Shown here: positions 9,448 through 41,355 of the stretch, piece after piece | Layout: the number at the start of each line of letters is the position of its first letter | Position numbering within the stretch: position 1 is the stretch's first letter | IMG/VR virus record: IMGVR_UViG_2889178456_000001 | Source of the DNA: a virus | DNA: 64,000 nt | Reading direction: 5' to 3' (one strand) | Translations under genes and position numbers: made by a program | Notes under the pieces: model-generated | What the model saw: the letters and a program-made list of their open reading frames with translations, nothing else | What the model was told of the DNA's origin: nothing | The model's database searches: none

Positions 9448-9671
9448 TCGTTACATAATCCGCCTTCACCACCACCCTGAGGCTGCGCCTCTAGGATGGT
9501 GCACTAGCGTCGGGTCGGTAGATTTTTTATCTGCGGTCATATTCATCACTCCTGTGCACTATGAGTGATGTGGGAGTCATGGTTTAAATTACCGTTTTCC
9601 ATTCATCCAAAATTAGCCACCTTTAATCAAATGGCTGAGCCTCTATAGGCCGTTCCGGATTAGTACTCCGT

Positions 9672-10495
9672 CCTGTAGTAACCACCCAATCTCAAGATGG
9701 CTGCATGGACGCGCAACCTCGTACAATCGCCGCTCCAACCTGTAGTAGCCACCCGAAATCAGGGTAGCTGTAATTGCCTCAAAGCCTCGCGCGGACGCGG
9801 TGCGTCTTTAGTAGCCACCAATAATCGAGATGGCTTCATGAATACTGGATAAACCCGGCTATATTATTCAATCTGTAGTATCCACCATAATGATGGCTGC
9901 ATCTGCGTGCGGTCTTTCCTTAAAAAGGCGATAAACCTGTAGTAACCACTCAATACCTGTGTGGCTGCATATGCGGTCGCGCGAGCGAGGGTTAGCGACG
10001 GTCCCTGTAGTAGCCACCTACATAAGGTGGCTAGATGCCTTTACGATATCGCTCGTAATCATTGCCTTTAATAACCACCCATAGCCAGGATGGCTGCACC
10101 AGTGCGCTGGATGCTTTCTATAATCGACACCTGTAGTAACCACTCAATATCAGTGTGGCTTCATCTTTGCTGTTTGACGATCACACAACGCATGTCCTGT
10201 AGTAACCACTCAATATTAGTGTGGCTGCATCTTCGTTCCGCATGGCGCCATGTGTAACGAGCCTGTAGTAACCACCCAATCCTAGGATGGCTGCATCAAG
10301 GCTCCTGGGTGGCTCAGGAGGCAGTTCCCTGTAGTAACCACTCAATATCAGTGTGGCTGCATCCGAAAGCCAAGGCTCGCCGCGCACCTCACCCCTGTAG
10401 TAACCACTCAATATTAGTGTGGCTGCATCCAGGAGATAAATCATGAGTAAATACATACACCTGTAGTAACCACTCAATATCAGTGTGGCTGCATC
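9672..10495 (-). CRISPR. CRISPR array 1: 13 repeats (32-36 nt) plus a probable degenerate 14th at about 9607-9641; spacers about 27-32 nt
   Basis: Minus-strand repeat GATGCAGCCACACTGATATTGAGTGGTTACTACAGG; + strand starts at 9672, 9739, 9805, 9872, 9936, 10004, 10065, 10130, 10196, 10262, 10328, 10394, 10460 (period about 66); most uniform next to dinG. Confidence 0.96.
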
Positions 10496-10648
10496 CGATA
10501 GTTGCTTATAGCAATGAATTCATTGAAGGAAAAGGTATCCTGACCTACTATTTTTGTGTTTTCCATCAGAATTTGTCGCCATCGTTTTCATTTTTAGGAC
10601 CGAGACCCGACTTTGGTAAAAGCGTAGCACGAATGCGCTGAAAACAGA
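10496..10648 (-). promoter_or_regulatory. AT-rich leader of array 1
   Basis: Non-coding, between the dinG stop and the best-conserved repeat; ends ...ATCG|GATGC, as does the array 2 leader. Confidence 0.6.
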
Positions 10649-12340
10649 TCAGAAAGTCAGCAGAACCTTGGCCTTTTTATTGATCTCTTCTTTTACGCGG
10701 GACTGGAGAGCCTCAATAGAAACGACGTTGTTGCCATCCTTATGAACATAGGCGTGGCAGTTCCGGCAAAGCACAGCGACATCTTCCATCCTGGTTTCGC
10801 CAGCACCACGCAGCGCCAGAGGGTTCAAGTGGTGTACCTCGAGCTGACGAATGTGAAATATCGTGCTGTCGCAGTTACCTTGGCATTTAGTGCCGTGATG
10901 AAGGAGAGCTTCCCGACGCACATGCGGGCTGCGTTCTGCTTTAGTGGTTTGAGAAGATACCTTGCGCCCTTCGTGATAGCCCGTTTTGAATCTATCGGGG
11001 ATAAATTTCGTTCCCAGATCTTCGATACGAGGGTCACAAAACACAACCCGGCAGTAAGCGTCAGGAGAGCGAAGACCCCTGCCCTGCCCCTGGATCAGAC
11101 GACGGATCGCAGCATTCTTGCTATCAGTGTAAGAAGACATGCTTTGGGTCACCATCATGTCAGGCTCATTTTCCAGCCATTCGTCGCCCAGCGCCTTTGG
11201 AGCAGCATAGGGAACCTGAGGGAAAATGATGGTGGTGAACGGCTCGGGCACATCGAGACCGGCCCAAGCGCCAGCAGCGATCAGGATCTTGCTGTTGCCC
11301 ATGCGCTCAGCTGCCTCAGTAGTGGTCTCATCGCGCTCACGCACCACGGCTTCAGGGATCTTTTCGCCGATCTCTTGAGCCAGACGGTGCGAAGGGGTGA
11401 TGACCAGGGTGCGGCCGTCGTTTGCAGCATCCATGGCTTGCTCAACAACAGTATTCATCCACCCTTCAGTGTTGTGGGCATCATCAAGATAGAAGTCATA
11501 GTGAAGGGTGCCGTGCTTCTTCGGAGAAATCATAGTCGAGAGAGGGCTGATGCGATCAATACCCATGGCCCGCTTAAAGTCATTGAAGTTGCCACCAATG
11601 CTGAGGGTAGCTGACATGAACACGGTGCTGGAGCGGTTACTGATCTTCTTGAGGATGCGACCAGGAAGACGGCTGTAGACAGCCAGATCGCCACGAGAGG
11701 TAACACCGCACTTGCGGAACCAGGACGGCTCTTCGGTGAGCCCTTCCAAGGCAAGACGCGCCTTCGCTTTTGTCTCTGCATCGAGACCTTCCTTGGTGAG
11801 CAGAGCGCCCACGATATCCAAGGGTTTGGTTGCTTTGATGTTGAAGGCTTTCAGCTCGTCCCGGGTGATCGTCATTTCAGAGGTTAGGGCTGCGAGATCG
11901 GGCAGCATGTCGGCTTCATCAAACAGGATGGCGTCACGCTCGGTTACCCCATTGTACTGGCCCTTGAGGCGTTGGTCGAAGATCACGGAGCTGGAGGTGC
12001 AGAGCATGATATCTGCGCGCAGACACTGCTCTTTGTTCTCGAGGTATTCAGTTTCGCTATCGAAGAAAGACTTGGGGCGGAAAGCGGCTACTGTGACACG
12101 AGGGTAGATGTCTTGAATGACGGTAAGATCAGAGGAGGCAAGAAGCTGGTCTATGAGAGCGTGGGTGGGGAAGCAGATGGCAATTTTCTGTTCGGAACGG
12201 GCAGCGGCATTCAAGTAAGCGCGCGTCTTGCCGACCCCGGTAGTTGCCTCAATCAGAAGAGGGCCGGTTGGGTTTGCGAGGTGGCTCGATATGCGGTCGT
12301 TGAATTCGGTTTGTTCTTCGGAACGGAAAAGGGTTTTCAT
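10649..12340 (-). CDS. dinG: Type IV-A CasDinG helicase with C-terminal HNH nuclease fusion
   Basis: Walker A EATTGVGKT, FDEAD, MSATL, QGQGRGLR; C-terminal CQGNC...EVHHLNPL...LCRNCHAYVH. Start set at MKTLFRS. Confidence 0.92.
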   Translation of the reverse strand: MKTLFRSEEQTEFNDRISSHLANPTGPLLIEATTGVGKTRAYLNAAARSEQKIAICFPTHALIDQLLASSDLTVIQDIYPRVTVAAFRPKSFFDSETEYLENKEQCLRADIMLCTSSSVIFDQRLKGQYNGVTERDAILFDEADMLPDLAALTSEMTITRDELKAFNIKATKPLDIVGALLTKEGLDAETKAKARLALEGLTEEPSWFRKCGVTSRGDLAVYSRLPGRILKKISNRSSTVFMSATLSIGGNFNDFKRAMGIDRISPLSTMISPKKHGTLHYDFYLDDAHNTEGWMNTVVEQAMDAANDGRTLVITPSHRLAQEIGEKIPEAVVRERDETTTEAAERMGNSKILIAAGAWAGLDVPEPFTTIIFPQVPYAAPKALGDEWLENEPDMMVTQSMSSYTDSKNAAIRRLIQGQGRGLRSPDAYCRVVFCDPRIEDLGTKFIPDRFKTGYHEGRKVSSQTTKAERSPHVRREALLHHGTKCQGNCDSTIFHIRQLEVHHLNPLALRGAGETRMEDVAVLCRNCHAYVHKDGNNVVSIEALQSRVKEEINKKAKVLLTF

Positions 12341-12449
12341 CAAATGTCTCGCGGTATGCAGAAGCAAAAGGCTTCGTCTGTTCTTAAATCTTCCAAGACC
12401 AGCAAGGCTTGGCAAGAACAGTAATAGCAAACTCTAAAACAAAGTAAAG

Positions 12450-12532
12450 TCTATCCTTGATCTATTCATTAATAAAATACGCTATATCAAGGATAGATTT
12501 GGTCTGACGAGATTATCCTTAGTTATCCTTGA
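12450..12532. promoter_or_regulatory. Operator-like repeats upstream of dinG-HNH
   Basis: Perfect 12-bp inverted repeat TCTATCCTTGAT (12450-12461) / ATCAAGGATAGA (12486-12497), plus two more TATCCTT copies at about 12514 and 12524. Confidence 0.5.
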
Positions 12533-12535
12533 ACG

Positions 12536-12570
12536 GAAAGTGCCCCGGAGATTTCTCCCCGAGGCACTTC
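12536..12570 (-). terminator. Probable terminator after csf2
   Basis: Imperfect GC hairpin AAGTGCC...GGCACTT with a short U-tract on the minus strand, about 25 nt after the csf2 stop. Confidence 0.55.
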
Positions 12571-12594
12571 GTTGATCGTTAGTTGGTAGTTGTG

Positions 12595-13569
12595 TTAGGC
12601 GGCGGCCTGCACAACCTCCGAAACCTTGGCAGCATCGAAGTCCGTGGTTTCGATGGTCTCTACGATTTTGCCATCAACTTTGATGGTGGCAACCATTTTC
12701 ACGTGACCACAGCCACGAGCCTGATTGCCGCCCAGCAGCGGGTACTGGCTCAGGGTTTCCAGCCAGGTGCGGATCACGCCAACATCGGTTTCACGCGGAT
12801 TGTCAATGATCAGGAAGCCTTTCCATTCAACACCGGCAGGCAGGGCATAGAAGGAAGCCAGGTTCTTGGAAGAGACCTTCATCCCGCCCATTTCGTCTTC
12901 ATACTTCTTCAACTGAGCCTGAGCGTCAGCCAGAGCCGATTTCAGATCCTTGTTGTCCTTGTCCCTCCACAGCTTGCGCTCGATCTGCGAAACGATAGCG
13001 GCAGCAGCAGAACGCTTCTGGTTCGCAGAAGACCGGGCATAGAAAGCCTGCTGGTTTTCGTCATCCAGCAGATCGACAGCACCTTCGGTATCGTCGATAT
13101 CTTTCTTCACCACACCGAAGGCTTCCGGCAGGACATCGATCTCGGGCATCAGGTTCGACATCTTCAGACGCGATGCCATGTTCAGGCCGCAACCAAACAG
13201 GTCTGCAACGGCATTGATCTCTTTCTGACGCTCAGTGCGAGCATCGGCCAGGTTGATCGTTTCCGCAGCGGTCTCAGATGCAGCATCCTGCCCAGTAATC
13301 GCTTTATAGGCATCTTGCAGAGTGTATGCTTTACCCTCAGCAGCGGCCTTCTCCATCAGCGGGATGGCCATTGCACGGCGGGCGCTGCCACGCAGGGTGG
13401 TTGCTGGGATATAGGCAGTCTGGATCGCCTCACCATCGGCATTCAGGCCACGGGTCATGACGGGAGCACCATCCCACTTGTTTTCGCGCAGGCCCTGCGG
13501 TGTTGGGAGCTTGATGCTCAGCGGGCTCTGGGTGGTCAGGGTCAGGTCGACTTTGATGATCTTTTTCAT
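12595..13569 (-). CDS. csf2: Type IV Cas7-family backbone subunit Csf2
   Basis: RAMP features: LTTQSPLSI, YIPATTLRGSARR, DLFG, Gly loop LGGNQARGCGHV; AAAGGA RBS. Confidence 0.9.
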   Translation of the reverse strand: MKKIIKVDLTLTTQSPLSIKLPTPQGLRENKWDGAPVMTRGLNADGEAIQTAYIPATTLRGSARRAMAIPLMEKAAAEGKAYTLQDAYKAITGQDAASETAAETINLADARTERQKEINAVADLFGCGLNMASRLKMSNLMPEIDVLPEAFGVVKKDIDDTEGAVDLLDDENQQAFYARSSANQKRSAAAAIVSQIERKLWRDKDNKDLKSALADAQAQLKKYEDEMGGMKVSSKNLASFYALPAGVEWKGFLIIDNPRETDVGVIRTWLETLSQYPLLGGNQARGCGHVKMVATIKVDGKIVETIETTDFDAAKVSEVVQAAA

Positions 13570-13595
13570 ATTTTCAGTTCCTTTGTATGAAGTAG

Positions 13596-14090
13596 TTAGA
13601 TTACGATGAGGCCACGGCCGTAGGCCTTGCCAGGAGTGGAGACGCCCTCTCTGAGGACAGCTTTGAAAGCGTCGAGGTCGGTGACCTTCAGAACGCCGGT
13701 GAAGTCGGTTTTGTCCATGCTGAAGCCTTTGCCTTTGGCAATCTTCTCCGGCTCGCTTGACACATGACAGGCGATGATCTCGAAACCATTAGCGCGGCGG
13801 TCGAGCCACTCTTTGCGGGAGCGCCAGTCTTTGGGAGAGAAGTACTTATGCTTGCCCCGAGTTTTCTTGCCGCAGGAAGCCCGCAATTGAAAGGAAACCA
13901 CGTCGCCCTCTTTGATGTCGCGAACAGGCACAGCATTGTTGGTCAGATCGGGGCTCTCGCTCCGCACAACGATATGGTCATCGTTCACAACATGCAGAGC
14001 GCGGCCGCCATCTGTCATTTGCTCAAGAAGCTGGTGAACAGCATACCCATCGATACCAGCGGGTTTGGGGATAAGGTGATCAAACAGCAA
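13596..14090 (-). CDS. cas6: Cas6 crRNA processing endonuclease (Cas6e-like), short
   Basis: FQLRA, EWLDRR, FTGVLKVTDLDAF and terminal G-loop GKAYGRGL; overlaps csf1. Confidence 0.82.
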   Translation of the reverse strand: MLFDHLIPKPAGIDGYAVHQLLEQMTDGGRALHVVNDDHIVVRSESPDLTNNAVPVRDIKEGDVVSFQLRASCGKKTRGKHKYFSPKDWRSRKEWLDRRANGFEIIACHVSSEPEKIAKGKGFSMDKTDFTGVLKVTDLDAFKAVLREGVSTPGKAYGRGLIVI

Positions 14091-14574
14091 CTTTAAGCTC
14101 CTTCTCGGCTTTGATTTTGGCTTTCATCATGCGCTTGTGCATGGGGGTGTTGGCTTCTTCGAACATGTTGAAGGTCTCGGTGTCGCCGGGGGAGCAGATG
14201 CGCATGACCCGGGGATCGTAGCTCAGGTAGATGTTCGAAAGCGGGAATGCGGCATTGGTGAACGTCAGGAAGCACCAAGGCTTCGGCAGTCGATCAATCG
14301 CATAGAGGAATGCCTCATGTGCTTTCATGTCCGGTTCCGTGAGCACATTGTCGTACATGAACTCAGAGTTGGTCATGAAGCCGCCGTTGTAGACCACAAC
14401 CCACGCACCCTTCATGAAGCGCTTGGTTTTCGGGTTCCCTTTGGCATCAACCTTGTCGACCATCGGGTGCGGCATTGAGAGCGCACGCTCGGTCTTTTTA
14501 ACAGGGCAGTTGATCGCAGGATCGATATCGAATTGGCCTGCAAAGTGCTCAGCCAGAAATTCAAAGGTGTTCAT
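14080..14574 (-). CDS. csf1: Probable Csf1 (Cas8-like) subunit, small
   Basis: Translationally coupled between csf3 and cas6; called mainly by position, with weak sequence cues (PKPWCF). Confidence 0.55.
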   Translation of the reverse strand: MNTFEFLAEHFAGQFDIDPAINCPVKKTERALSMPHPMVDKVDAKGNPKTKRFMKGAWVVVYNGGFMTNSEFMYDNVLTEPDMKAHEAFLYAIDRLPKPWCFLTFTNAAFPLSNIYLSYDPRVMRICSPGDTETFNMFEEANTPMHKRMMKAKIKAEKELKVAV

Positions 14575-15197
14575 GCTGCATTCTCCATCGGCATATAGCA
14601 GGCAGCCCGGTTCATGGGGTCGTAATAGCGGGGGCGCCAGGCGGCATCGACAAGAGGAAGATCACGGTTGCCTGCAAACCGATCTTCGGGAACTGGACGC
14701 AATGGATTGCCCTGATCATCCATGATGCCATCGAAATCGCTTTCTTCGATGGACCAGCCGCCTTCAACGATCTGACCGTAGCCCTGCGACCGCTTTTTGC
14801 CGAGGAAGTAAACGTCTTTCAGCAGAGCGTGGATGCCATGCATGTCGCCTTCGCAGTGCCAGCTGACCGTCGCAGTCGTAAAGGTCGGATAGGTGTGAAA
14901 GACGTTACCGCAGCCCTTACGACGCTGGATATCATACATCTTGTGGGTGCCACCGTTCTTGTTCTTCTTGATGAGATCGGGGTCCAAACGGTGTTGGCCA
15001 TGCAGACCGGCAATGAAGCCGACCTTGCCATGAATGGGGGTCTCAAGAATGGCGCTCGATGCGTGAAAGAGACCATCAGTCTGCTTCAGAGGGATGTCAG
15101 GATCGCCCTTGAGGCACATAAGGAGAGCGTCAAAGGTCATCTCTCCTTGCTTGATGAGCGGCGAGGCAAGCTGCGCCGTGATCTTGAGTTTGTGCAT
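14571..15197 (-). CDS. csf3: Type IV Cas5-family subunit Csf3
   Basis: LKITAQLASPL, TFDALL, FLGKKRSQGYGQI, RPVP, WRPRYY; start shares the GGAACTGA upstream motif with csf2. Confidence 0.87.
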   Translation of the reverse strand: MHKLKITAQLASPLIKQGEMTFDALLMCLKGDPDIPLKQTDGLFHASSAILETPIHGKVGFIAGLHGQHRLDPDLIKKNKNGGTHKMYDIQRRKGCGNVFHTYPTFTTATVSWHCEGDMHGIHALLKDVYFLGKKRSQGYGQIVEGGWSIEESDFDGIMDDQGNPLRPVPEDRFAGNRDLPLVDAAWRPRYYDPMNRAACYMPMENAA

Positions 15198-15267
15198 GTC
15201 AGTTCCGATTGTAATTCGTGTTGTTGGCTTCATAGCAAGAACAGTTCATGGTCTGCAAGTATAAATT

Positions 15268-15932: not shown

Positions 15933-15999
15933 TCAGGTATCGTTAATCTCTATTTAACTGCCCCCAGATAATGTGCGCGAGCTCTTCAAGAGGATTGAT

Positions 16000-17691
16000 A
16001 TGGCTCGCGCACCTAAAATTACCGGCTCCCCATTACAGTTGAAGTTACCCGCGTCGACCCTCTGGATCGTCGGTATATTCAGTCTTGCAGTGAACATGCT
16101 CCTGCTGGCCGGTCCCATCTATATGCTTCAGGTCTACGACAGAGTGCTTGGAAGCCGCTCAGAGGCCACCTTGGTGGCTCTCACGGCTATTTTGGTTGCC
16201 CTCTATGGGTTCATGGCATCATTCGACTACATTCGCGGCCGTCTGCTAGCTCGCATGAGCGCACAGATGCAACAAAAGCTAGATCCAGCGATCTTTCGAT
16301 CTGATCTTTTGGATTCCATCGGAGACCGAACGGGCCCCAAAGACATCGAGATGGTCCAGAAGATGCTTTCCTCTCCGGTGTTCGTGGCTTTCTTCGATCT
16401 TCCTTGGACACCCGTATTTCTGGCTGGCATCGCAATCTTCCATCCGGCGCTGGGCGTGCTTGCCCTAGTAGGTGGTGCCATCATTGTCGCGCTCTCTGTT
16501 CTGAACCAAGCCTCCTCACAAAGCGCAGCAATGGCTCAGATGACCGCATCTTCTAAAGCAAATATGATTGCCATGCAGTCGATCAGATCCTCAGAAGACA
16601 TTCAGGCGCTGGGCATGCGCGGTAGTGTGGCGGCTCGCTGGACGAAGTTCCGTGAAGAAGCCTTGGCCGAAAATATGAAATCAGGTGATCGTCAAGGAGG
16701 ATTCCTGTCAACAACCAAAGCTCTCCGGCTGTTCTTGCAATCTGCCATGCTTGGTTTGGGCGCCTATCTGGTACTCTTGGGAGAGCTGACACCCGGTGCC
16801 ATGATTGCTGGCTCCATTCTTCTTGGCCGTGCTCTCCAGCCTGTAGAGCAAATTATGGGTCAGTGGCAAAACGTACAGCAAGCACGCACGGCTTGGACCA
16901 ACATCAAGTCAAAGCTCAGCGCCCTGCCTGTCGAGACCCCAAAGACTGACATTTCGAAGCCCACTGGGCAACTTAAGGTGGCGAGCATGACCATTGTGCC
17001 ACCTGGCAATGTCAAAGCCACCTTGGCGATGATAGATTTCGAGATCCCTGCTGGCACTGCGCTGGGCGTCATCGGCACATCAGGATCAGGGAAATCAACT
17101 CTGGCTCGTGCAATCACAGGCGTTTGGAAACCTGCTGGAGGCCGCATTAGTATGGATGGATGGCCCATTAATCACTTTGATGGCGACGTCCTCGGCCGCC
17201 ATATCGGGTACCTATCACAACAGGTGGTTCTTTTTGACGGTACGATTGCTCAGAATATCGCACGCATGGAGGAAGACCCGGATCCTGAAGCTGTTTTGGA
17301 AGCCGCCAGGAAGGCAGGCGCCACGGATCTCATCCAGTCCCTGCCGCAAGGGTTCGACACCCCTATTACAAGCACATCTACAGCGCTTTCTGGCGGCCAG
17401 ATGCAAAGGATTGCGCTTGCCCGGGCCCTTTATGGAAACCCGTCCATACTGGTTCTGGATGAACCCAACTCCAATTTAGATCAGGCCGGTATCGTTGCTC
17501 TAAACAAGGCAGTCGCCGAAACCAAGAAGGCAGGAGGCTCCATCATAATTATGGCTCACCGACCTTCGGCAATTGAGGAGTGCGACCTTCTTCTAGTGCT
17601 CGACAAGGGGCGTAAGACCGCCTTTGGGCCTCGAGATGAGGTACTCAAGAGCGTGCTGAAATCAGCACCACGGACACAGGGATCTGCGTGA
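16000..17691 (+). CDS. prtD: Type I secretion ABC transporter (PrtD family)
   Basis: MLQVYDRVL, Walker A GTSGSGKST, LSGGQ signature, LVLDEP. Confidence 0.92.
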   Translation: MARAPKITGSPLQLKLPASTLWIVGIFSLAVNMLLLAGPIYMLQVYDRVLGSRSEATLVALTAILVALYGFMASFDYIRGRLLARMSAQMQQKLDPAIFRSDLLDSIGDRTGPKDIEMVQKMLSSPVFVAFFDLPWTPVFLAGIAIFHPALGVLALVGGAIIVALSVLNQASSQSAAMAQMTASSKANMIAMQSIRSSEDIQALGMRGSVAARWTKFREEALAENMKSGDRQGGFLSTTKALRLFLQSAMLGLGAYLVLLGELTPGAMIAGSILLGRALQPVEQIMGQWQNVQQARTAWTNIKSKLSALPVETPKTDISKPTGQLKVASMTIVPPGNVKATLAMIDFEIPAGTALGVIGTSGSGKSTLARAITGVWKPAGGRISMDGWPINHFDGDVLGRHIGYLSQQVVLFDGTIAQNIARMEEDPDPEAVLEAARKAGATDLIQSLPQGFDTPITSTSTALSGGQMQRIALARALYGNPSILVLDEPNSNLDQAGIVALNKAVAETKKAGGSIIIMAHRPSAIEECDLLLVLDKGRKTAFGPRDEVLKSVLKSAPRTQGSA

Positions 17692-18980
17692 TGCAAAAAT
17701 ATGGACAACGAAAACTCATTCTTACCGGAGTCTTCCTGCTTGCCGCTTTGGTCGCCGTTATGGGCGGATGGGCTGGTACGGCACAGATCAGTGGCGCAAT
17801 CATCGCTCCCGGCAGAGTTCAGGTCGACGACAATCGGGTAATCGTACAGCACCTAGATGGGGGAGTGATCGAAACTCTTCATGTGGATGAAGGTGACCTC
17901 GTGGAACAAGGCCAGCTGCTGCTGACCCTCGACCCGGCCGAACTGCGCTCCCAGTACAATATTATTGAAAGCAAGCTGAACGAAATCACAGCACGCCGTG
18001 CCAGGCTTGAGGCCGAACGCGATAATATGAATACGCTTTCCTTTGATCCCATGTTGGAGCTGAAGGCCGACCGACAAGAGGTTAAAGAGCTGATGGATGG
18101 CCAGCAAAGGCTTTTTGAAGCCCGTAATGTATCTCTGAAAACCGAACGCGAGCAACTCGGTCGCCGTCAAAAACAGATCGAGGAGCAGATCATTGGCATT
18201 GAGGCCCAACAGGATGCGATGAGTGAGCAGCTGGAACTGCTTAAAGGTGAATTGGACAACCAACAGACACTGTTGGATCGGGGGCTCGCTCAATCATCAA
18301 GGGTGACTTCCCTTAGAAGGGAGCAATCTCGTCTGCGTGGATCTCTCGGGGAGCTACAAGCTTCGAAGGCGCAAGCTAGTGGCCGTATCATCGAACTGGG
18401 TATCGAAATTGAGAAGCTTGATACATCCCGGCGCGAGAGGGCTGTCACCGAACTTAGAGATCAGCAATACAGAGAGCTTGAACTGCTGGAGCAAGAGCGG
18501 GTTCTGCGGATGCAGCTGGGTCGCCAGCATGTAACAGCACCCGTAAATGGGGTGGTCTATAATATGGCGCCGGTGAACCCTGGTGCGGTTCTGCGACCTG
18601 CGGACCCCCTGCTCTACTTGGTTCCCCAAAACCGTCCGATGGTGGTTGCAGCCGAGATCGAGGCCAAGGACATCCACCGTATCGCCTTCAATCAGGAAGT
18701 CCTGGTGCGGTTTTCATCCTTGGATCAGAAGAATGCCCCAGAAGTCACCGGGAGCGTCATAAAAATATCTGCGGATGCTTTCCAGGTGGAGAACCGGGCA
18801 CCATTCTACAAAGTAGAGATTGAGCTATCTCCTGAGCAACTGGCTGAAGCCATCAAGAACGTGGATCTGATCCCGGGCATGCCTGTTGAGGCCTTCATTC
18901 AGACGGGGGCGAGGACACCACTCGCGTACCTCACAGAGCCTTTGACGGATTACTTCATGGCTGCCTTCCGAGAAGGGTAA
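17688..18980 (+). CDS. prtE: Type I secretion membrane fusion protein (HlyD/PrtE family)
   Basis: VQHLDGGVI, coiled coil, VTAPVNGVV, LIPGMPVEAFI; overlaps the prtD stop. Confidence 0.92.
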   Translation: MMQKYGQRKLILTGVFLLAALVAVMGGWAGTAQISGAIIAPGRVQVDDNRVIVQHLDGGVIETLHVDEGDLVEQGQLLLTLDPAELRSQYNIIESKLNEITARRARLEAERDNMNTLSFDPMLELKADRQEVKELMDGQQRLFEARNVSLKTEREQLGRRQKQIEEQIIGIEAQQDAMSEQLELLKGELDNQQTLLDRGLAQSSRVTSLRREQSRLRGSLGELQASKAQASGRIIELGIEIEKLDTSRRERAVTELRDQQYRELELLEQERVLRMQLGRQHVTAPVNGVVYNMAPVNPGAVLRPADPLLYLVPQNRPMVVAAEIEAKDIHRIAFNQEVLVRFSSLDQKNAPEVTGSVIKISADAFQVENRAPFYKVEIELSPEQLAEAIKNVDLIPGMPVEAFIQTGARTPLAYLTEPLTDYFMAAFREG

Positions 18981-19263: not shown

Positions 19264-19533
19264 TATCAACTTCTACTGAAGTTCGTTGACATTTTTGGAC
19301 GATGTTGTAGATATCATTCTATCTTTCAAACCATATCCTTACTAGGGAGCCCCGGTCATCTTGATCGGGGCTTCTGGTTTTAAGCGGCAGCGACCTGGAT
19401 TAGGGTTTCTTCTAAGTGATGCTTCACAGCACTCCGAATGTCGTCCTCACTATCAGGGTCGAGCGGGTTCTTCTTATGCGCATTATGAACTACTCCACCC
19501 TAACCTGACGGTTCAGGATGGAGTTTCCGGGAC

Positions 19534-20769: not shown

Positions 20770-20776
20770 CTTAATT

Positions 20777-21193
20777 ATGCCATTAGAACCGAAATTTTAC
20801 AAGCTAAATCATAGTATTTACGCATCGCACTATCATTTAGTTCTTACGGCGAAGTACCGTCGTAAAGTGATTAACGGACCTATTTTGGCTCGCATCGAGC
20901 AACTGGTGAGGAAAAGATCAGAAGATTGGGGTGGCGAGCTTTTGGAGATGAATGGCGAAGCTGATCATGTGCACTTTCTTTCATCGCTACCACCAACCAT
21001 GGATTTGACGAAGTTCATCAACAACGTGAAGACCACGTATTCACGTGTCATTCGGAATGAGTTTTCTGATCATGTGAGTAAGTTTTACTGGAAGTCTGTT
21101 TTTTGGTCTCGCACATATTGCCTTGTGAGTTGCGGCGGTGCGCCGTTTTCCATCATCAAGCAGTATATCGAGAATCAGGATCAGCCAGATTAA
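20777..21193 (+). CDS. tnpA: IS200-type HUH transposase
   Basis: HVH and IKQYI retained; several substitutions relative to copy 1. Confidence 0.92.
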   Translation: MPLEPKFYKLNHSIYASHYHLVLTAKYRRKVINGPILARIEQLVRKRSEDWGGELLEMNGEADHVHFLSSLPPTMDLTKFINNVKTTYSRVIRNEFSDHVSKFYWKSVFWSRTYCLVSCGGAPFSIIKQYIENQDQPD

Positions 21194-24850: not shown

Positions 24851-25483
24851 ATGAGCAAGAAGTACGGGCGCACATATCATCTACCAGGCTCACCTGGTGC
24901 CACGAGTGATGACAAGATTCTCAAGTCCCTGTCTGCTTTCGAGCAGGACGGCGGCGTTGATGTGGTGGCTACCGAAAAAATGGATGGCGAAAACACCACT
25001 ATTTATGACGGTGGCACCCATGCGCGGAGTGTCGACGGACGCTATCACCCCTCTCGGGATCGCATGAAGGCCTTCGCAGCGGGCATCTCCCCTATGTTGG
25101 CGGCCAATGAGCGCATTGTGGGCGAGTACCTCTATGCGAAGCACTCCATTGCCTATGATGGGCTGCCTCACTTCTTCATGGGGTTTGCCTGGATCAAAGA
25201 TGAGGTGATCCAATCCTGGGATGATACCATGCAGCGGTTTAGTGAGCTTGGCATCGTGCCGGTTCCGGTTCTCTGGCGCGGAAAGTTTGATATCCGTCAG
25301 ATTGATGCGCTTGTCAGCGGACTGGATCTTGAACAGCAAGAAGGCTTCGTTGTCCGGGTGATGGATGCTTTCCATGAGGACCAAATGGTAACCTCCATGG
25401 GCAAGTATGTCCGCGAAGGTCATGTTCAGACGGAAACTCACTGGATGCATCAAGAGATCATCCCAAACACATTCAAGATGTGA
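24851..25483 (+). CDS. ATP-dependent RNA ligase family protein
   Basis: KYGRTYHLP, motif I TEKMDGEN, GEYL, motif IV EGFVVR, KYVR. Confidence 0.85.
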   Translation: MSKKYGRTYHLPGSPGATSDDKILKSLSAFEQDGGVDVVATEKMDGENTTIYDGGTHARSVDGRYHPSRDRMKAFAAGISPMLAANERIVGEYLYAKHSIAYDGLPHFFMGFAWIKDEVIQSWDDTMQRFSELGIVPVPVLWRGKFDIRQIDALVSGLDLEQQEGFVVRVMDAFHEDQMVTSMGKYVREGHVQTETHWMHQEIIPNTFKM

Positions 25484-34112: not shown

Positions 34113-34313
34113 GAGTAAACCTCTACCTGAAAATTATAGCTAAGAATATATGTTCTATAGTGCATGTATATATTGGCTTGCGCAAGCACAAACACACTGC
34201 TAGAAAGATCTCATGAATAATATCATTGGATTTATCTTTATGGCCGCTGATAGCAAGGGTATGGACGTTCCGTACCGTACAAAATGTGGCCCTTGGACGC
34301 GAGCGGCAGCAGT

Positions 34314-34694
34314 ATGACGAAAAACCTTCTTGATCGATCCCTTAAGGCGCTTTCTTCCCTGACTAGCTATGCGAAATGGCAGATTTCTGAAGGTGACACC
34401 CATCACCCGACATTGCCAAGTGCGCTGGCGCAGGCGGAGAGCGTGTTGTTCGACGCCAAAGAGCCAGAGGTGAAGTCGACCACGACTGTGATGATCGACG
34501 ACCAGGAATATGAAATCGAGGGATGCCCTTTCTGCGGCTCGGCGCCTGAGTTTGTTGAGCGTGCAGGCGACGCCTTTGGCTTCCGGTGCACCTGTGCCAG
34601 CAAGCGGTACATTCAGACCTACTACGATACCAGCATCAATGACCGGACCGGCCGCATCGAAAGCGCCGTTGCCTCATGGAATAATCGATCCTGA
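34314..34694 (+). CDS. Protein with C-terminal Lar-like (restriction alleviation) Zn-ribbon domain
   Basis: CPFCG...CTC...AVASWNNR pattern. Confidence 0.55.
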   Translation: MTKNLLDRSLKALSSLTSYAKWQISEGDTHHPTLPSALAQAESVLFDAKEPEVKSTTTVMIDDQEYEIEGCPFCGSAPEFVERAGDAFGFRCTCASKRYIQTYYDTSINDRTGRIESAVASWNNRS

Positions 34695-35357: not shown

Positions 35358-35369
35358 AGGGAACCATTT

Positions 35370-35561
35370 ATGGCCAGTAAGTCGCCAGACGTACTTCCGA
35401 CCACGAAGGACAAGGCTTTAGACGCCGAGATCAGAGCTTCTCAGTGGCTTGCTTCGGCTAATGAGCTATCAGAACGCGGCAGTACGGAGAAGGCCGAAGA
35501 ACACTATCGGAAGGCTCAGTTCTGGCTTGATCGCTACAACAAGCTTGCGGGAAACCTTTAG
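35370..35561 (+). CDS. Small hypothetical protein
   Basis: 63 aa helical ORF after AAGGG. Confidence 0.55.
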   Translation: MASKSPDVLPTTKDKALDAEIRASQWLASANELSERGSTEKAEEHYRKAQFWLDRYNKLAGNL

Positions 35562-35674
35562 TGCCGGTTGTGAGAAAACCAGTTTTGTCATGAAAGATGA
35601 CTGCTATGCGGACTAATTTTGAAGGATCATTGTGCGAATTTAATATTTGGATTCAAAGCGATAGAGAATGATCG

Positions 35675-36762
35675 GATGCAGCCACCATGAATATGGGTGG
35701 CTACTACAGGGGGGAAGCCCGATATGCAGTGAGTTACGGCGGTGCAGCCATCCCTATGGGTGGCTACTACAGGTAGGACTGCCGACCGAAGCATTATAGA
35801 TGCAAGTGCAGCTAACCAGATATTCGGTGGCTACTAGAGAAACGTGATGATGCCGCTTACACAAACACTATGTGCAGCTACCAGGATTATGGGTGGTTAC
35901 TACAGAGGAGCAGCTGCGCTGCGCCTGCGGTGGGTATATTCAGCTACCACAATATTGGTAGCTACTACAGGTCTATTACTTTGAATGACGTGCAAGGACT
36001 TGGATGCAGCCACTCTGATTGTGGGTGGCTACTAAAGGAGAAAGTTGATTATACTGCGCATGGCTGGTGATGCAGCCATCCTGAATAAGGGTGGTTACTA
36101 CAGGTTGGAAGGAAAGACGCCCTAGTATTGAGAGAGATGCAGCCATCCTTGGGGTGGTTACTAAAGGTATCGGCGCTTGGCTTCTGCCTTCGTGAATGAA
36201 ACAGCCACCCTAGGAATGGATGGCTACTACAGTTGGGAACAGCTACGCATGCTGATGCGTCGTGATCAGCCATCAAAATAGTTGGTGGCTACTAAAGGAA
36301 GGGTGCCATTGCTGTTCCGTATTCGTCGAGTTCCAGCCATCCAAACTATGGGTGGCTACTACAGATCCCAAACGGCCTCCGCTTCGCCAAGCCAACAGAC
36401 AGCTATCCCGATTTGGGTGGCTACTACAGACTGCGAGGGCCACACGATGAGCTTGCAAAGGACGCAGCTATCCTGAGAGTGGGTGGTTACTAAAGGACGC
36501 AGGCGCTTAGAGCGTGTACGCGGGCAGATGCAGCCATCCTGAATATGGGTGGCTACTAAGGTTGGGAAGCGATGGTGCTATTTTCCTACGCGGTGCAGTC
36601 ACCCAATATATGGGTGGCTACTACAGGAGAGAACCTTCAGAGGTCTGCTGATCGCATATATGCAGCAGACCTGAGTTTGGGTGGCTACTACAGGCACATC
36701 CATTTGAGATAGTAGCCCCGGCCACTGGTGCAGCCATCCAAAATATGGGTGGCTACGAATAC
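35675..36762 (+). CRISPR. CRISPR array 2 (orphan): 17 repeats (32-36 nt), spacers about 29-32 nt
   Basis: Repeats such as GATGCAGCCACCATGAATATGGGTGGCTACTACAGG at 35675, 35741, 35805, 35871, 35937, 36003, 36069, 36136, 36198, 36264, 36330, 36396, 36461, 36527, 36592, 36659, 36727; AT-rich leader upstream. Confidence 0.95.
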
Positions 36763-36785
36763 AATGAGAACTTCCCGCTGGGGCC

Positions 36786-38373: not shown

Positions 38374-38682
38374 ATGTGTATGACTAGGCTTCTAGTAGAT
38401 CAGAAGAATGATGACAGCACTGTCGTGGTCGCTGAGAGGCTTAAGGCTATCCGCACGGTGACTGGTCTGAATAAGAAGGGTTTCGCGGAAAGGGCTGGCA
38501 TTACCGAGCAAACCTACGGCCCGTTTGAGAATTCGAAGCGTGAGCTATCACTCTTGGCAGCTAAGAAGCTTCGGAAAACGTATGATCTGTCCTTGGACTT
38601 CTTATATTTTGGCGTAATCTCAGATTTGCCATCTCGATATATCGAATCTTACTTGAAAACAGAAATTACGGACGATCCTTAG
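38374..38682 (+). CDS. XRE-family HTH regulator
   Basis: ERLKAIR...FAERAGI...YGPFENSKR...YDLSLDFLYFG. Confidence 0.85.
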   Translation: MCMTRLLVDQKNDDSTVVVAERLKAIRTVTGLNKKGFAERAGITEQTYGPFENSKRELSLLAAKKLRKTYDLSLDFLYFGVISDLPSRYIESYLKTEITDDP

Positions 38683-39839: not shown

Positions 39840-40136
39840 TCATTGTCGGGTCTCGCAACCTTCTTGGGCCAGGCGCTCAGCTTTAACCCGAGCTGCTATT
39901 TCACTCAGGTTCTTGTGTCTTACCTCATCGGTCAGCTCGTTACGTCTTGCTTTTTCGGCATCCCGTTGGGCTTGAATACGATTTCGTGCGAGTTCAAATA
40001 GGTAGTGCGCGAACATGGTTGCAGCGATACAAGATAGTGCCGCCAACATGAATGGAGCACCCAAAGCAATCGCGATGTCAAAAATAACGATTATGCCTAC
40101 TGTATATAGGCAAGATACAATAAATCTATCAAGCAT
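39840..40136 (-). CDS. Small two-helix membrane protein
   Basis: AAAGGA RBS before MLDRF. Confidence 0.55.
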   Translation of the reverse strand: MLDRFIVSCLYTVGIIVIFDIAIALGAPFMLAALSCIAATMFAHYLFELARNRIQAQRDAEKARRNELTDEVRHKNLSEIAARVKAERLAQEGCETRQ

Positions 40137-40321
40137 ATCGCGTCCTTTAAAAATATGGTAGGAAAACTGGCTTTGACATACAGGTTCCCTGTGATCGTAA
40201 TTGCTTACGATCATCATAGATGTGGCCGCTTAAGACAGAATTAAGACGATGCCATTTCCGGAGCTTTCAAAGAGACTTCTTGAGAATATGAGAAACTCAA
40301 GATAGCTTTCCTCAAACACTC

Positions 40322-40666
40322 TTGGAAGCAGGCGCCGAGACGATGATGTTCAAGTCGACAGATACGATGGCCATAGGAGCGCGTCTTAAAGCGATCCGCG
40401 TTGGGCTCTCCCCGCTTTCGCAGAGAGATTGGGCTCTTAAGAATGGATTTTCATCGACCCAGTACAACAACTGGGAGACCGGGATCAGGCGCATTCCGGT
40501 GGAAGCGGCCGAGCGCCTTTGTGATTTATATGACCTGACATTGGATGCGATCTATCTCGGACGCCTTGATGGGCTCTCTATACGAACGTTGCAGGTTCTC
40601 CAAACCGCTGCACCTGCAAGCCCTTTAGGCATCAATCAAAGCAATCCTCAACCACAAGAGCGATGA
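40322..40666 (+). CDS. XRE-family HTH regulator, directly upstream of array 3
   Basis: ARLKAIR...SQRDWA...YNNWETGIRRIP...YDLTLDAIYLG; inverted repeat TCTTGAG/CTCAAGA at 40278-40302. Confidence 0.85.
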   Translation: MEAGAETMMFKSTDTMAIGARLKAIRVGLSPLSQRDWALKNGFSSTQYNNWETGIRRIPVEAAERLCDLYDLTLDAIYLGRLDGLSIRTLQVLQTAAPASPLGINQSNPQPQER

Positions 40667-40797
40667 TGCGCTCCATGAATAGAATAACTGGTGACGAAAT
40701 TTATCCTTGAGGTCTTCGCTCGATCCTTTTAGAAAGGTCACAAGCAAGGAGACTGGTACTTATAAAAGGGAGATCGAGAGGTTCTTAAGCTGATGAT

Positions 40798-41355
40798 GGT
40801 GCCAATTTACAGAGCTTGGGTGGCTACTAAAGTTTGCAGACGAGGCAAGTCTTGCCATGGTACAGCTAACCTGAATTTGGGTGGCTACTACAGGATACCC
40901 AGAGGGCGGCCCGCAGGCCGGGGGATTCAGCTACCCTGAGTATGGGTGGTTACTACAGGATCCGGGCCAAAGTTTCGAAAGTTGGATTGGATTCAGCTAC
41001 CCGGACTATGGGTGGTTACTACAGGTTATAATCCGTCGCACAGCCCTCCCTACGAGATGCAGCTATCCTGATATTGGGTGGTTACTACAGGTAGTCTCTG
41101 CGGTGATGCTGACGCTGAATCGATGCAGCTACCCAGAATATGGGTGGCTACTATAGGGGTAAGCATCCACGTCGCTTTGATGGTCATGATGCAGCTACCC
41201 GGACTATGGGTGGCTACTATAGGGTGCCAAAAATCTGGTACCGTGGCCTAAACTGATCCAGCTACCCTAGATTGGGTAGCTACTACAGATGATACCGCAG
41301 GGTCTCTGTATCGATTTTAGTTGCAGCCATCTTGACTATGGGTGGCTACGAATAA
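40798..41355 (+). CRISPR. CRISPR array 3 (orphan): 9 repeats (35-36 nt), spacers 25-31 nt
   Basis: Repeats such as GATGCAGCTACCCAGAATATGGGTGGCTACTATAGG at 40798 (degenerate), 40859, 40924, 40990, 41056, 41122, 41188, 41255, 41320. Confidence 0.94.

What the first reader, a model, noticed from the sequence alone, without database searches (positions are those of the whole stretch)
9607..41355. Three dispersed CRISPR arrays with hypervariable repeats that keep one RNA hairpin and 8-nt handle
Seen: 13, 17 and 9 repeats of one family. In arrays 2 and 3 essentially every repeat differs (loop sequence, length 32-36 nt). All keep a 5' arm CAGC(C/T)A(C/T)C-like, a 3' arm (G)GTGG(C/T)T-like and a tail ACTAnAGn. 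Many arm changes are C/T opposite G, which RNA tolerates as G-U. Established: Cas6 cuts at the 3' base of the stem and leaves a short 5' handle; here exactly 8 nt remain. Cas1-Cas2 copies repeats exactly, so fresh arrays are homogeneous. Inference: selection acts on RNA structure rather than DNA identity, perhaps resisting recombinational loss, and one effector uses a distributed guide library up to about 30 kb from the cas genes.
Basis: partly seen in the sequence, partly recalled or inferred. Interest (0 to 1): 0.85.

Follow-up and report, generated by a model that had tools for sequence, protein, structure and literature searches.

The report
Long-lived plasmid-targeting CRISPR arrays, drifting repeats
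Three real CRISPR arrays of a known plasmid-fighting type IV-A (DinG-HNH) system have almost no two repeats alike, yet every repeat keeps the RNA hairpin and 8-base tag the Cas proteins need, and strain comparisons show old, slowly eroding guide libraries rather than a new mechanism.

Summary
There are 14+17+9 = 40 repeats in three arrays, and 38 are distinct. Variation sits in the loop, the 5' flank, two handle positions and C/U wobble sites. The 8-bp hairpin keeps its register in 38 of 40 repeats, and pairing breaks far less often than neutral decay predicts (11 broken pairs vs 25-43 expected).

The cas module (10649-15233) is the published type IV-A DinG-HNH variant (Altae-Tran 2023; 26-52% identity to all five Sulfitobacter JL08 proteins).

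New evidence:
- Sister strains recovered from metagenomes carry the same idiosyncratic repeats, so the heterogeneity is inherited.
- Nearly all differences between strains fit whole-unit deletions; the cleanest junctions lie in repeats sharing 15-20 identical bases.
- Shared spacers are much more conserved than synonymous sites (1/305 vs 59/699).
- Five spacers from all three arrays match Roseobacter-group plasmids, all with the published 5' YCN PAM. None matches a phage.

Relatives normally have one cas-adjacent, mostly homogeneous array whose older repeats drift in the same way; the window is the extreme case.

Most likely reading: an old, slow-turnover guide library without its own adaptation genes. 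Tolerated repeat mutations accumulate, and dissimilar repeats survive deletion. That stabilising idea is already published for terminal repeats. crRNA processing and interference remain untested.

The parts
9604..10497 (-). CRISPR array 1: 14 repeats, 13 spacers. The leader-proximal repeats (10127-10497) are nearly identical ('type X', CACAC..GAGTGG). Distal repeats are all different, and the terminal repeat at 9604-9644 has a degenerate handle.
   Evidence: The spacer after repeat A1_08 (9972-10003) matches the S. indolifex 17-kb plasmid at 30/32 with PAM CCC.
10498..10648 (-). Leader of array 1, directly downstream of dinG. It is conserved in the 90%-identity relative L061 and homologous to the leader of array 2.
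   Evidence: (inverted repeat I1)
10649..12340 (-). dinG-HNH (csf4 with a C-terminal HNH nuclease), 563 aa. Walker B FDEAD and the HNH motif are conserved.
   Evidence: 51% identity to the characterised Sulfitobacter JL08 protein
12595..13569 (-). csf2 (Cas7 backbone), 324 aa
   Evidence: 39% identity to JL08
13596..14090 (-). Cas6e-like endoribonuclease, 164 aa; the presumed pre-crRNA processing enzyme
   Evidence: PF08798, E 5.8e-14; 52% identity to JL08
14080..14574 (-). 164-aa subunit in the csf1 (Cas8-like) position; no family hit
   Evidence: 26% identity to the syntenic JL08 protein
14571..15197 (-). csf3 (Cas5), 208 aa
   Evidence: 46% identity to JL08
35560..35672 (+). Leader of array 2. 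Its roughly 90 nt next to the array are homologous to leader 1.
35673..36765 (+). CRISPR array 2: 17 repeats, all different, and 16 spacers. The terminal repeat keeps the hairpin but has lost the handle (ACGAATAC).
   Evidence: S7 (36105-36135) matches Sulfitobacter plasmids and an abundant metagenome contig, PAM TCC. S5 (35975-36005) matches a plasmid AAA-ATPase gene, PAM CCA. A metatranscriptome contig covers 36547-36701.
40796..41358 (+). CRISPR array 3: 9 repeats, all different. In this strain it is truncated at its leader end by a 263-nt deletion (junction at 40816/40817). Its terminal repeat and trailer are homologous to those of array 2.
   Evidence: S8 (41290-41319) matches a Sulfitobacter sp. 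W027 plasmid, PAM CCA.

Best explanation
The three arrays are genuine crRNA-encoding CRISPR arrays of one repeat family. They most likely all serve the single type IV-A DinG-HNH module at 10649-15233.

Inferred by analogy with Cas6e and the published JL08 small-RNA data: each transcript is cut by the Cas6e-like protein at the 3' base of an 8-bp hairpin. This gives crRNAs with an 8-nt ACUAnAGn 5' handle, a spacer of about 30 nt and the hairpin at the 3' end. The Csf complex then finds plasmid DNA next to a 5' YCN PAM, and DinG-HNH shreds it.

The repeat heterogeneity is not made by a special mechanism. Fresh repeats in this family are born identical. This lineage has no adaptation genes nearby and very slow turnover, so old repeats have drifted at every position that Cas6 and Cas5 tolerate: the loop, the 5' flank, handle positions 5 and 8, and C-to-U opposite G. 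Purifying selection on the RNA keeps the stem and the rest of the handle.

Units flanked by still-similar repeats are lost by repeat-repeat deletion, so the survivors are enriched for dissimilar repeats. The spacers themselves are kept by selection because they target conserved plasmid sequences. The result is a quasi-hard-wired anti-plasmid guide library.
For: - System identity: five syntenic homologues of the JL08 DinG-HNH system, with Walker B and HNH residues kept.
- One repeat family, found only in these arrays.
- RNA-level constraint: the non-consensus fraction is 0.63 in spacers, 0.36 in the loop, 0.22 in the 5' flank, 0.17 in the 5' arm, 0.10 in the 3' arm and 0.08 in the handle.
- Arm transitions: 55 wobble-compatible vs 11 incompatible.
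- 24 arm haplotypes carry 56 substitutions but only 11 broken pairs, against 25-43 expected, P<1/3000.
- Compensatory U-A pairs in A2_05 and A3_08, and in the relative L061.
- Terminal repeats keep the stem and lose the handle.
- Repeats are born identical: homogeneous leader-proximal blocks in array 1 and in relatives L026, L062, L010, L018 and L028.
- Older repeats in relatives drift in the same way.
- Inheritance: sister strain S (dS 0.089) and strain T carry the same odd repeats.
- Turnover by deletion: nearly all strain differences fit unit deletions. The two clean junctions share 15 and 19-20 identical nt, against a median of 9-11 for repeat pairs.
- The loss rate is about 25 per spacer per substitution per site, against a published median of 374 (PMC11472070).
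- Spacer selection: 1 substitution in 305 nt vs 59/699 synonymous (p 7e-9), 16/617 intergenic (p 0.017) and 6/204 permissive repeat sites (p 0.018).
- Targets: five spacers from all three arrays match Roseobacter-group plasmids, 5/5 with YCN (chance about 3-8e-5), and there are no phage hits.
- An abundant contig in three metagenomes matches exactly the 31 nt of spacer A2_S7.
- Divergence within the lineage: all arrays share the 5' flank GATGC, unlike other lineages.
Against: - No direct evidence of processing or interference. The RNA evidence is one 159-nt metatranscriptome contig, which could be DNA carry-over.
- The whole genome is not held, so a second cas locus or a Cas1-Cas2 elsewhere cannot be excluded.
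- Time-scale tension: loop divergence from consensus (JC 0.49) implies units about 6-11 times older than the sister-strain split. With the estimated loss rate, the mean survivor age should be 2-4 times younger.
- There is no positional gradient of repeat similarity in array 2.
- Different spacers sit between the same pair of odd repeats in two strains: S1 vs S1' between A2_01 and A2_02, and Sa vs St1 after the same first repeat. This needs extra deletion steps under this model.
- The alternating G/A loop variants at the leader end of array 1 do not fit simple serial duplication.
- The spacer-conservation tests rest on 10 spacers and one strain pair.
Confidence: 0.6

Rival explanations
1. Heterogeneity is introduced at or near acquisition. 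New units would be installed without faithful duplication of the first repeat. Possible routes are recombinational capture of repeat-spacer units from other arrays, ectopic or replacement integration between existing repeats, or error-prone or template-switch repair of the hairpin-forming repeat.
For: - Two strains have different spacers between the same two idiosyncratic repeats (S1 vs S1' between A2_01 and A2_02). Strains S and T share an identical first repeat of array 3 followed by different spacers and different second repeats.
- Repeat similarity shows no gradient along array 2 and almost no array-specific flavour, 0.722 within vs 0.709 between arrays.
- About 12% of spacers still match extant plasmids at 90-100%, which is a normal hit rate for young spacers (PMC7038947).
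- Loop-length changes and the alternating loop variants in array 1 could reflect hairpin-associated repair errors.
- 3 of 5 related genomes lack any Cas1.
Against: - Where recent acquisition is visible (leader end of array 1; L026, L062, L010, L018, L028), the repeats are identical, so canonical copying operates in this family.
- All arrays keep the lineage-specific 5' flank GATGC, which argues against import from diverged lineages.
- Every strain difference can be explained by deletions, with microhomology at the junctions.
- Orthologous loops changed at or below the neutral rate between strains, so there is no hypermutation.
Confidence: 0.2
2. Repeat diversity is itself the selected trait. 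Mutant repeats would be positively selected because they block recombinational loss of valuable spacers. That makes it an adaptation, not a by-product of age plus survivorship.
For: - Clean deletions between strains hit the repeat pairs with the longest shared runs: A3_06/A3_07 with 19-20 nt and A2_14/A2_17 with 15 nt.
- The loss rate is about 15 times below the published median (PMC11472070).
- Spacers are under purifying selection, so retaining them has value.
- The literature already proposes this effect for terminal repeats (PMC12839519).
Against: - The same data fit passive filtering.
- Loops of orthologous repeats evolve no faster than synonymous sites, about 3.6% vs 8.4%. That gives no sign of positive selection.
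- Only two clean deletion junctions are available.
- Relatives with homogeneous arrays of up to 21 repeats persist.
Confidence: 0.12
3. Arrays 2 and 3 are orphan relics, no longer used, decaying neutrally, or serviced by a different, unseen cas system. Only array 1 would feed the DinG-HNH complex.
For: - They lie 25-30 kb from the cas genes on the opposite strand.
- Array 3 has lost its leader in this strain.
- No sigma-70-like promoter was detected in the leaders.
- The rest of the genome could not be searched.
- Four related complete genomes have only a cas-adjacent array.
Against: - The stem and handle are conserved far beyond neutral expectation in arrays 2 and 3 as well.
- Spacers are more conserved than the flanking DNA.
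- Spacers of arrays 2 and 3 have plasmid protospacers with the cognate YCN PAM.
- Leader 2 is homologous to leader 1.
- A metatranscriptome contig covers part of array 2.
- The promoter scan was equally negative for array 1, so it is uninformative.
Confidence: 0.08

Closest known systems
Type IV-A CRISPR-Cas variant with DinG-HNH (Sulfitobacter sp. JL08; Altae-Tran et al., Science 2023, PMC10910872)
   Same: Same five-gene set and order (csf3, small csf1-position protein, Cas6e-like, csf2, dinG-HNH), at 26-52% identity. Same repeat family (AGCCAYCC-loop-GGGTGGYT-ACTAnAGG), 30-nt spacers, and 5' YCN next to natural protospacers. No adaptation genes in the locus.
   Different: In JL08 and almost all 40 relatives, one short, mostly homogeneous array sits between csf2 and dinG. 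Here that site is empty. One array lies downstream of dinG and two more lie 25-30 kb away. 38 of 40 repeats are distinct.
Type I-E repeat / Cas6e (CasE) processing
   Same: The repeat architecture is a short 5' flank, a hairpin, then exactly 8 nt. The Cas6 here hits the CasE families (PF08798; TIGR01907 below its cut-off).
   Different: The repeat is 36 nt with an 8-bp stem and 7-nt loop, instead of 29 nt. The cleavage site has not been measured for this genome.
Plasmid-targeting type IV-A systems that lack adaptation modules and borrow Cas1-Cas2 in trans (Pinilla-Redondo et al. 2020, PMC7038947; Benz et al., bioRxiv 10.1101/2023.06.23.546257)
   Same: Spacers match plasmids and not phages. 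There is no cas1/cas2 next to the system. Cas1 is absent from 3 of 5 related genomes.
   Different: Those studies describe arrays with consensus repeats matched to a helper type I system. No helper system is identified here, and the repeats have no consensus copy in arrays 2 and 3.
Repeat mutations as stabilisers of spacers against repeat-misalignment deletion (Fehrenbach et al. 2024, PMC11472070; Mitrofanov et al. 2026, PMC12839519)
   Same: Deletions occur between similar repeats. Mutated repeats coincide with retained spacers. Terminal repeats are degenerate.
   Different: Those analyses concern mainly terminal repeats, and the repeat-mutation survey does not mention type IV. Here the effect would extend to every repeat of three arrays, with direct strain-to-strain junction evidence.

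Membership tests
Type IV-A CRISPR-Cas, DinG-HNH variant | Effector genes csf2 (Cas7), csf3 (Cas5), a csf1-position subunit and a Cas6, together with a DinG-family helicase | tested here: met
   NCBIfam and Pfam hits. All five are syntenic and 26-52% identical to the JL08 proteins. The family hits score below the curated cut-offs, so the assignment rests on homology to JL08.
Type IV-A CRISPR-Cas, DinG-HNH variant | HNH nuclease domain at the C-terminus of DinG with catalytic residues, plus an intact Walker B motif | tested here: met
   PF01844 at aa 516-563 of the 593-aa ORF. The alignment with JL08 keeps FDEAD, the HH..D..H motif and the CxxC pairs. 17-sequence alignment A2 shows these columns are invariant.
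Type IV-A CRISPR-Cas, DinG-HNH variant | crRNA with a spacer of about 30 nt | tested here: met
   Spacer lengths are 29-32 nt with a mode of 30. This is a DNA-level measure only.
Type IV-A CRISPR-Cas, DinG-HNH variant | 5' YCN PAM | tested here: met
   5 of 5 natural protospacers are preceded by TCC, CCA, CCC, CCA or CCT. The chance of this is about 3-8e-5.
Type IV-A CRISPR-Cas, DinG-HNH variant | RNA-guided, ATP- and HNH-dependent plasmid interference | not testable with these tools
   Needs a transformation or interference assay.
Type IV-A CRISPR-Cas, DinG-HNH variant | No cas1/cas2 in the locus | tested here: met
   No Cas1 or Cas2 hit among about 50 ORFs of the window scanned against Pfam, NCBIfam or PADLOC. 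The rest of the genome could not be searched.
Cas6e-type repeat (hairpin followed by an 8-nt 5' handle) | A stable hairpin whose 3' base lies exactly 8 nt before the spacer | tested here: met
   38/40 repeats fold so, at -6 to -15 kcal/mol. 93.4% of pair cells are paired, against 25-52% when the pairing partners are slid by 1-3 columns.
Cas6e-type repeat (hairpin followed by an 8-nt 5' handle) | Cleavage at the 3' base of the stem by the cognate Cas6 | not testable with these tools
   Inferred from CasE homology and the JL08 small-RNA-seq (PMC10910872).
Neutrally decaying orphan array | Repeat variation indifferent to RNA pairing and handle; spacers evolving like neutral DNA | tested here: not met
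   11 broken pairs vs 25-43 expected. Handle non-consensus fraction is 0.08 vs 0.63 in spacers. Spacers show 1/305 vs 59/699 at synonymous sites.

The most novel reading that the evidence does not exclude
This lineage shows a CRISPR system converted from adaptive to quasi-innate immunity. In this reading a germline-like, multi-locus library of 'evergreen' anti-plasmid guides is kept for species-level time by purifying selection on the spacers. Near-complete repeat diversification, constrained only by the Cas6 hairpin and the Cas5 handle, is what makes the arrays recombination-proof. A bolder form is that new units can be installed between existing non-identical repeats without repeat duplication.
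Probability: 0.25. Interest if true: 0.8.

Novelty: new variant of a known kind. Interest (0 to 1): 0.6.

Why it matters
- **Natural mutational scan.** The 38 different repeats (plus relatives) are all compatible with one Cas6/Csf complex. They define which repeat positions matter: stem pairing with G-U allowed, and handle positions 1-4, 6 and 7. They also define which do not: the loop, the 5' flank, and handle positions 5 and 8. This is directly useful for designing recombination-stable multiplex arrays for the DinG-HNH DNA-shredding effector.
- **Direct evidence on array stability.** Strain-resolved data support an open idea in CRISPR evolution: that repeat divergence trades adaptability for stability of immune memory. 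Deletions fall at the most similar repeats, the loss rate is about 15 times below the median, and spacers are under purifying selection.
- **Type IV biology.** A system without its own adaptation genes can hold long-lived, PAM-correct guides against conserved plasmid backbones of marine Roseobacter-group bacteria, spread over several loci.

Tried and rejected
- **Whole-genome search for more arrays, other cas loci or Cas1:** impossible, because the genome is not held.
- **Near-identical plasmid match to the cas region or to 41.5-64 kb:** none; only TnpB fragments matched.
- **Phage targets for the three arrays:** none.
- **IMG/VR scan for the A2_S7 protospacer junction:** none.
- **Sigma-70 promoter scan of leaders 1 and 2:** nothing. 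This is uninformative for an alphaproteobacterium.
- **Column-shuffle covariation control:** only weakly informative (93.4% vs 89.9%), because C/U opposite G pairs regardless. I replaced it with the transition-asymmetry and mutation-simulation tests.
- **Model R1 on distant relatives' whole genomes:** too insensitive, so I used an IUPAC pattern instead.
- **My first guess about the sister strain's array 3:** I assumed it equalled strain T minus deletions. The real contig (L049) showed three unique spacers, so the guess was wrong.
- **A repeat-like hairpin inside dinG (about 11583-11620, minus strand):** seen in the fuzzy scan but not significant with the covariance model. I treat it as chance.
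- **Arsenophonus plasmid hit to an array 1 spacer:** 30/34, E 0.2; judged spurious.
- **Assembly artefact:** rejected, because independent assemblies agree.

Full report
**1. What is there**

Direct-repeat search, reading the sequence, a fuzzy motif scan and a covariance model built from the repeats all agree. The window holds exactly 40 repeats of one family, in three arrays.

- Array 1: 9604-10497, minus strand, 14 repeats.
- Array 2: 35673-36765, plus strand, 17 repeats.
- Array 3: 40796-41358, plus strand, 9 repeats.

With filters off, the model finds nothing else above noise in the 64 kb.

The repeat is about 36 nt. It consists of a 5-nt flank (GATGC), an 8-bp stem (AGCCAYCC / GGGTGGYT) around a 7-nt loop, and then 8 nt, ACTAnAGn. 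Spacers are 29-32 nt with a mode of 30. 38 of the 40 repeat sequences are distinct. Independent assemblies reproduce them base for base, so this is not an assembly artefact.

**2. The cas genes**

The minus-strand operon at 10649-15233 encodes, in order:

- Csf3/Cas5;
- a 164-aa protein in the Csf1 position;
- a Cas6e-like protein (PF08798);
- Csf2/Cas7;
- after a 255-nt gap, a DinG helicase with a C-terminal HNH domain.

All five are syntenic with, and 46, 26, 52, 39 and 51% identical to, the proteins of the Sulfitobacter sp. JL08 system. That system was shown experimentally to be a type IV-A variant. All five components, the Walker B motif and the HNH triad are required for PAM-dependent (5' YCN) plasmid interference. 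Its crRNAs carry 30-nt spacers, and DinG-HNH shreds the target directionally (PMC10910872). The Walker B and HNH residues are conserved here. The cas module is therefore a new member of a known kind.

No Cas1 or Cas2 was found among about 50 scanned ORFs of the window. The rest of the genome (GCA_017743915.1, an 819-kb contig) is not held and could not be searched.

**3. Is the variation structured?**

Yes. Non-consensus fractions by region are:

| Region | Non-consensus fraction |
|---|---|
| Adjoining spacer columns | 0.63 |
| Loop (transitions:transversions 31:61) | 0.36 |
| 5' flank | 0.22 |
| 5' arm | 0.17 |
| 3' arm | 0.10 |
| Handle (only positions 5 and 8 vary) | 0.08 |

Further points:

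- 93.4% of pair cells are standard pairs, against 25-52% when the pairing partners are slid by 1-3 columns.
- The column-shuffle control is weak (89.9%), because most changes are C/U opposite G. I therefore used two sharper tests.
- Test (i): transitions that RNA tolerates as G-U (C>U opposite G, A>G opposite U) outnumber the mirror-image transitions that would break pairing, 55 to 11. At the DNA level these two classes are the same mutation on opposite strands. The counts are cells, not independent events.
- Test (ii): over 24 distinct arm haplotypes there are 56 substitutions but only 11 broken pairs. Simulations expect 25-43 for any transition fraction from 1/3 to 1, and none of 3000 simulations reached the observed value.
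- True compensatory U-A pairs occur in A2_05 and A3_08. The 90%-identity relative L061 has a U-A pair where the window's array 1 has an A.A mismatch.
- 38/40 repeats fold into the expected hairpin in the same register.
- The last repeat of each array keeps the hairpin but has lost the handle, the part not needed when no spacer follows.

**4. Family context**

I retrieved 40 DinG-HNH loci from named genomes, plus JL08 and another complete genome.

- In almost all of them one array lies between csf2 and dinG and ends just before dinG.
- In four complete or near-complete relatives' genomes a repeat-pattern search finds only that array, with homogeneous repeats.
- Three of five such genomes have no Cas1 at all.
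- The 68% relative L062 has two arrays flanking dinG. Each is homogeneous, but they differ from each other in loop and 5' flank and share the same stem and handle. One Cas6 evidently accepts different loops.
- The 90% relative L061 shares the window's layout: nothing between csf2 and dinG, and a conserved leader and array downstream of dinG.
- Several relatives (L026, L007, L032, L036, L006, L030) have a homogeneous leader-proximal block. It is followed by older repeats whose loops and C/T wobble sites have drifted while the stem and handle stay.
- Array 1 of the window has such a young block too.

So repeats in this family are born identical and drift later. The window is the extreme case, with core identity 0.72-0.75 against 0.76-1.00 in 19 relatives' arrays.

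**5. Strain comparisons, the most informative new evidence**

Public runs hold these arrays. Laying contigs on the window revealed a sister strain, and I recovered its contigs through neighbouring proteins.

- Strain S: L045 (array 2) and L049 (array 3).
- Strain T: L046, L047 and L048, from three independent metagenomes, one of them TARA.

S differs from the window by pS 0.084 (dS 0.089), pN 0.010 and 16/617 intergenic differences.

(a) The shared units carry the same idiosyncratic repeats. Only A2_01, A2_02, A2_11 and A2_13 differ, by 1-2 changes each. The heterogeneity is therefore inherited and older than the strain split.

(b) The strains differ by whole units.

- In array 2, S lacks units 2-6 and 14-16. 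The 14/17 junction shares 15 nt.
- In array 3, S lacks S6; the A3_06/A3_07 junction shares 19-20 nt.
- S also has three unique spacers in array 3 and one in array 2.
- T has three extra leader-side units in array 3, and an intact repeat where the window has its 'degenerate first repeat'.
- The window lost 263 nt there, comprising the end of the leader, three units and half a repeat.

All differences can be explained by deletions. For comparison, the median longest identical run between repeat pairs is only 9-11 nt.

If all differences are deletions, the loss rate is about 25 per spacer per substitution per site, against a published median of 374 (PMC11472070). This is a rough figure from one strain pair.

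(c) The ten shared spacers (305 nt) have one substitution plus one 2-nt indel at a spacer edge. The comparisons are:

| Compared with | Differences | p |
|---|---|---|
| Synonymous sites | 59/699 | 7e-9 |
| Intergenic sites | 16/617 | 0.017 |
| Permissive repeat positions in the same units | 6/204 | 0.018 |

The last comparison is insensitive to local recombination history. The spacers appear to be under purifying selection.

**6. Targets**

BLAST of the arrays against 50,697 phage records gave nothing. Against 72,556 plasmids it gave six spacer-sized hits. Five are in Roseobacter-group plasmids.

| Spacer | Match | Target |
|---|---|---|
| A2_S7 | 29/31 | Two S. indolifex plasmids and one S. 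faviae plasmid |
| A2_S5 | 28/31 | AAA-ATPase gene on a Sulfitobacter sp. W027 plasmid |
| A3_S8 | 30/31 | Neighbouring gene of the homologous module on another W027 plasmid |
| A1_S8 | 30/32 | 17-kb S. indolifex plasmid |
| T-strain St2 | 30/30 | Small MOBQ plasmids in eight genera |

- All five protospacers are preceded by YCN: TCC, CCA, CCA, CCC and CCT in table order. The chance of this is about 3-8e-5.
- A 213-nt contig at about 5 times the depth of the sister-strain contigs, seen in three metagenomes, matches exactly the 31 nt of A2_S7 with one mismatch and is also preceded by TCC.
- No spacer is shared between arrays, and none targets the window itself.
- A metatranscriptome contig covers 36547-36701 of array 2. 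This is consistent with transcription but does not prove it.

**7. Interpretation**

Shown:

- The arrays are real and form one family.
- The RNA hairpin and handle are under purifying selection.
- The repeat variants are heritable.
- Turnover is dominated by unit deletion, with the clean junctions at similar repeats.
- Spacers are conserved and match plasmids with the cognate PAM.

Inferred:

- Cas6e-like cleavage leaves the 8-nt handle.
- All three arrays load the one Csf/DinG-HNH effector.
- The heterogeneity is accumulated, tolerated drift in an old, slow-turnover library, sharpened by survivorship of units with dissimilar repeats.

All three arrays share the lineage-specific 5' flank GATGC, whereas other lineages have AATAC, GCTTC, GATAC or AGTGC. 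This argues for divergence within this lineage rather than import of units.

Time-scale: loop divergence from consensus (JC 0.49) and 5' flank divergence (0.26) compare with about 0.045 per lineage since the S/W split, and about 0.49 per lineage since the split from L061, where dS is 0.98. The units would be old at roughly the species level.

**8. What does not fit neatly**

- Repeat similarity shows no positional gradient in array 2 and almost no array-specific flavour, 0.722 within vs 0.709 between arrays.
- Different spacers lie between the same odd repeats in different strains.
- The leader-end repeats of array 1 alternate between two loop variants and are interrupted by an odd repeat.
- The estimated loss rate predicts somewhat younger survivors than the loop divergence implies.

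These points keep alive a rival in which units are installed or exchanged without faithful repeat duplication (about 0.2).

**9. Novelty**

The system is known (PMC10910872). Plasmid targeting and missing adaptation genes are typical of type IV (PMC7038947). The idea that repeat mutations reduce recombinational spacer loss has been published for terminal repeats (PMC12839519, PMC11472070).

In the papers I searched and read, I found no description of the following:

- near-total repeat diversification across three dispersed arrays that still look functional;
- strain-resolved deletion junctions;
- evidence of purifying selection on spacers;
- PAM-correct plasmid targets from each array.

I rate this a new variant of a known kind and of moderate to good interest. 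It serves mainly as a natural tolerance map for Cas6/Csf recognition and as a test case for the trade-off between array stability and adaptability.

Noticed in passing
window 7729-9447 and 19475-21193: Two IS200/IS605-type copies (TnpA Y1 transposase plus TnpB) sit in direct orientation, 84-95% identical and 11,746 bp apart. They bracket array 1, the cas operon and a type I secretion ABC/HlyD pair, like a composite element. A third, different TnpB lies at 46973-48172.
   Followed up: partly
window 10127-10497 (minus strand): The leader-end repeats of array 1 alternate between loop variants TGATATT and TAATATT: A1_01 = A1_03 and A1_02 = A1_05 exactly. They are interrupted by an unrelated variant, A1_04, that resembles distal A1_13. 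This does not fit simple serial duplication of the first repeat.
   Followed up: partly
window 12341-12594; loci L001, L002, L005-L044, L062, L061: In nearly all relatives the CRISPR array lies between csf2 and dinG. The window and its 90% relative have an empty 255-nt gap there and the array downstream of dinG. The 68% relative L062 has arrays on both sides, which looks like an intermediate state.
   Followed up: partly
window 40816/40817; L046 (reverse complement) 2969-3232: A strain-specific 263-nt deletion removed the last 46 nt of the array 3 leader, three repeat-spacer units and the 5' half of a repeat. Among the lost spacers is one that perfectly matches small MOBQ plasmids found in eight Roseobacter-group genera.
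   Followed up: yes
L057 2001-2028 and L059 1501-1532 (Sulfitobacter sp. W027 plasmids): Spacers from two different arrays (A2_S5 and A3_S8) hit the same conserved two-gene module, a 185-aa hypothetical protein plus a 758-aa AAA ATPase, on two different plasmids of one strain. This suggests the library is aimed at plasmid backbone functions.
   Followed up: partly
window 11583-11620 (minus strand, inside dinG): A repeat-like hairpin, CAGCTACCC-TCAGCATT-GGTGGC, lies in the dinG coding strand. It appeared in the fuzzy scan but is not significant with the covariance model. It is probably chance, though a Cas6 autoregulatory site is conceivable.
   Followed up: partly
window 34284-34694, 38374-38682, 40322-40666, 22474-23175, 24851-25483: The arrays are embedded in mobile-element-like genes: a Lar-like restriction-alleviation protein, two XRE-type HTH proteins, a stand-alone HNH endonuclease, an RNA ligase and a CobT-VWA protein. 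dS between strains varies from 0 to 0.18 from gene to gene, which indicates a mosaic recombination history.
   Followed up: partly
window 15973-18980 and 49346-51970: A type I secretion ABC transporter and HlyD adaptor lie next to the cas operon. An 874-aa RTX-repeat subtilase about 30 kb away could be their substrate.
   Followed up: no
genomes G001, G002, G005 (behind loci L005, L012, L028): Pseudopelagicola, Congregibacter and Roseateles genomes carry DinG-HNH systems with arrays of 6-21 repeats but no detectable Cas1 anywhere. How this family acquires PAM-correct spacers is unresolved.
   Followed up: partly
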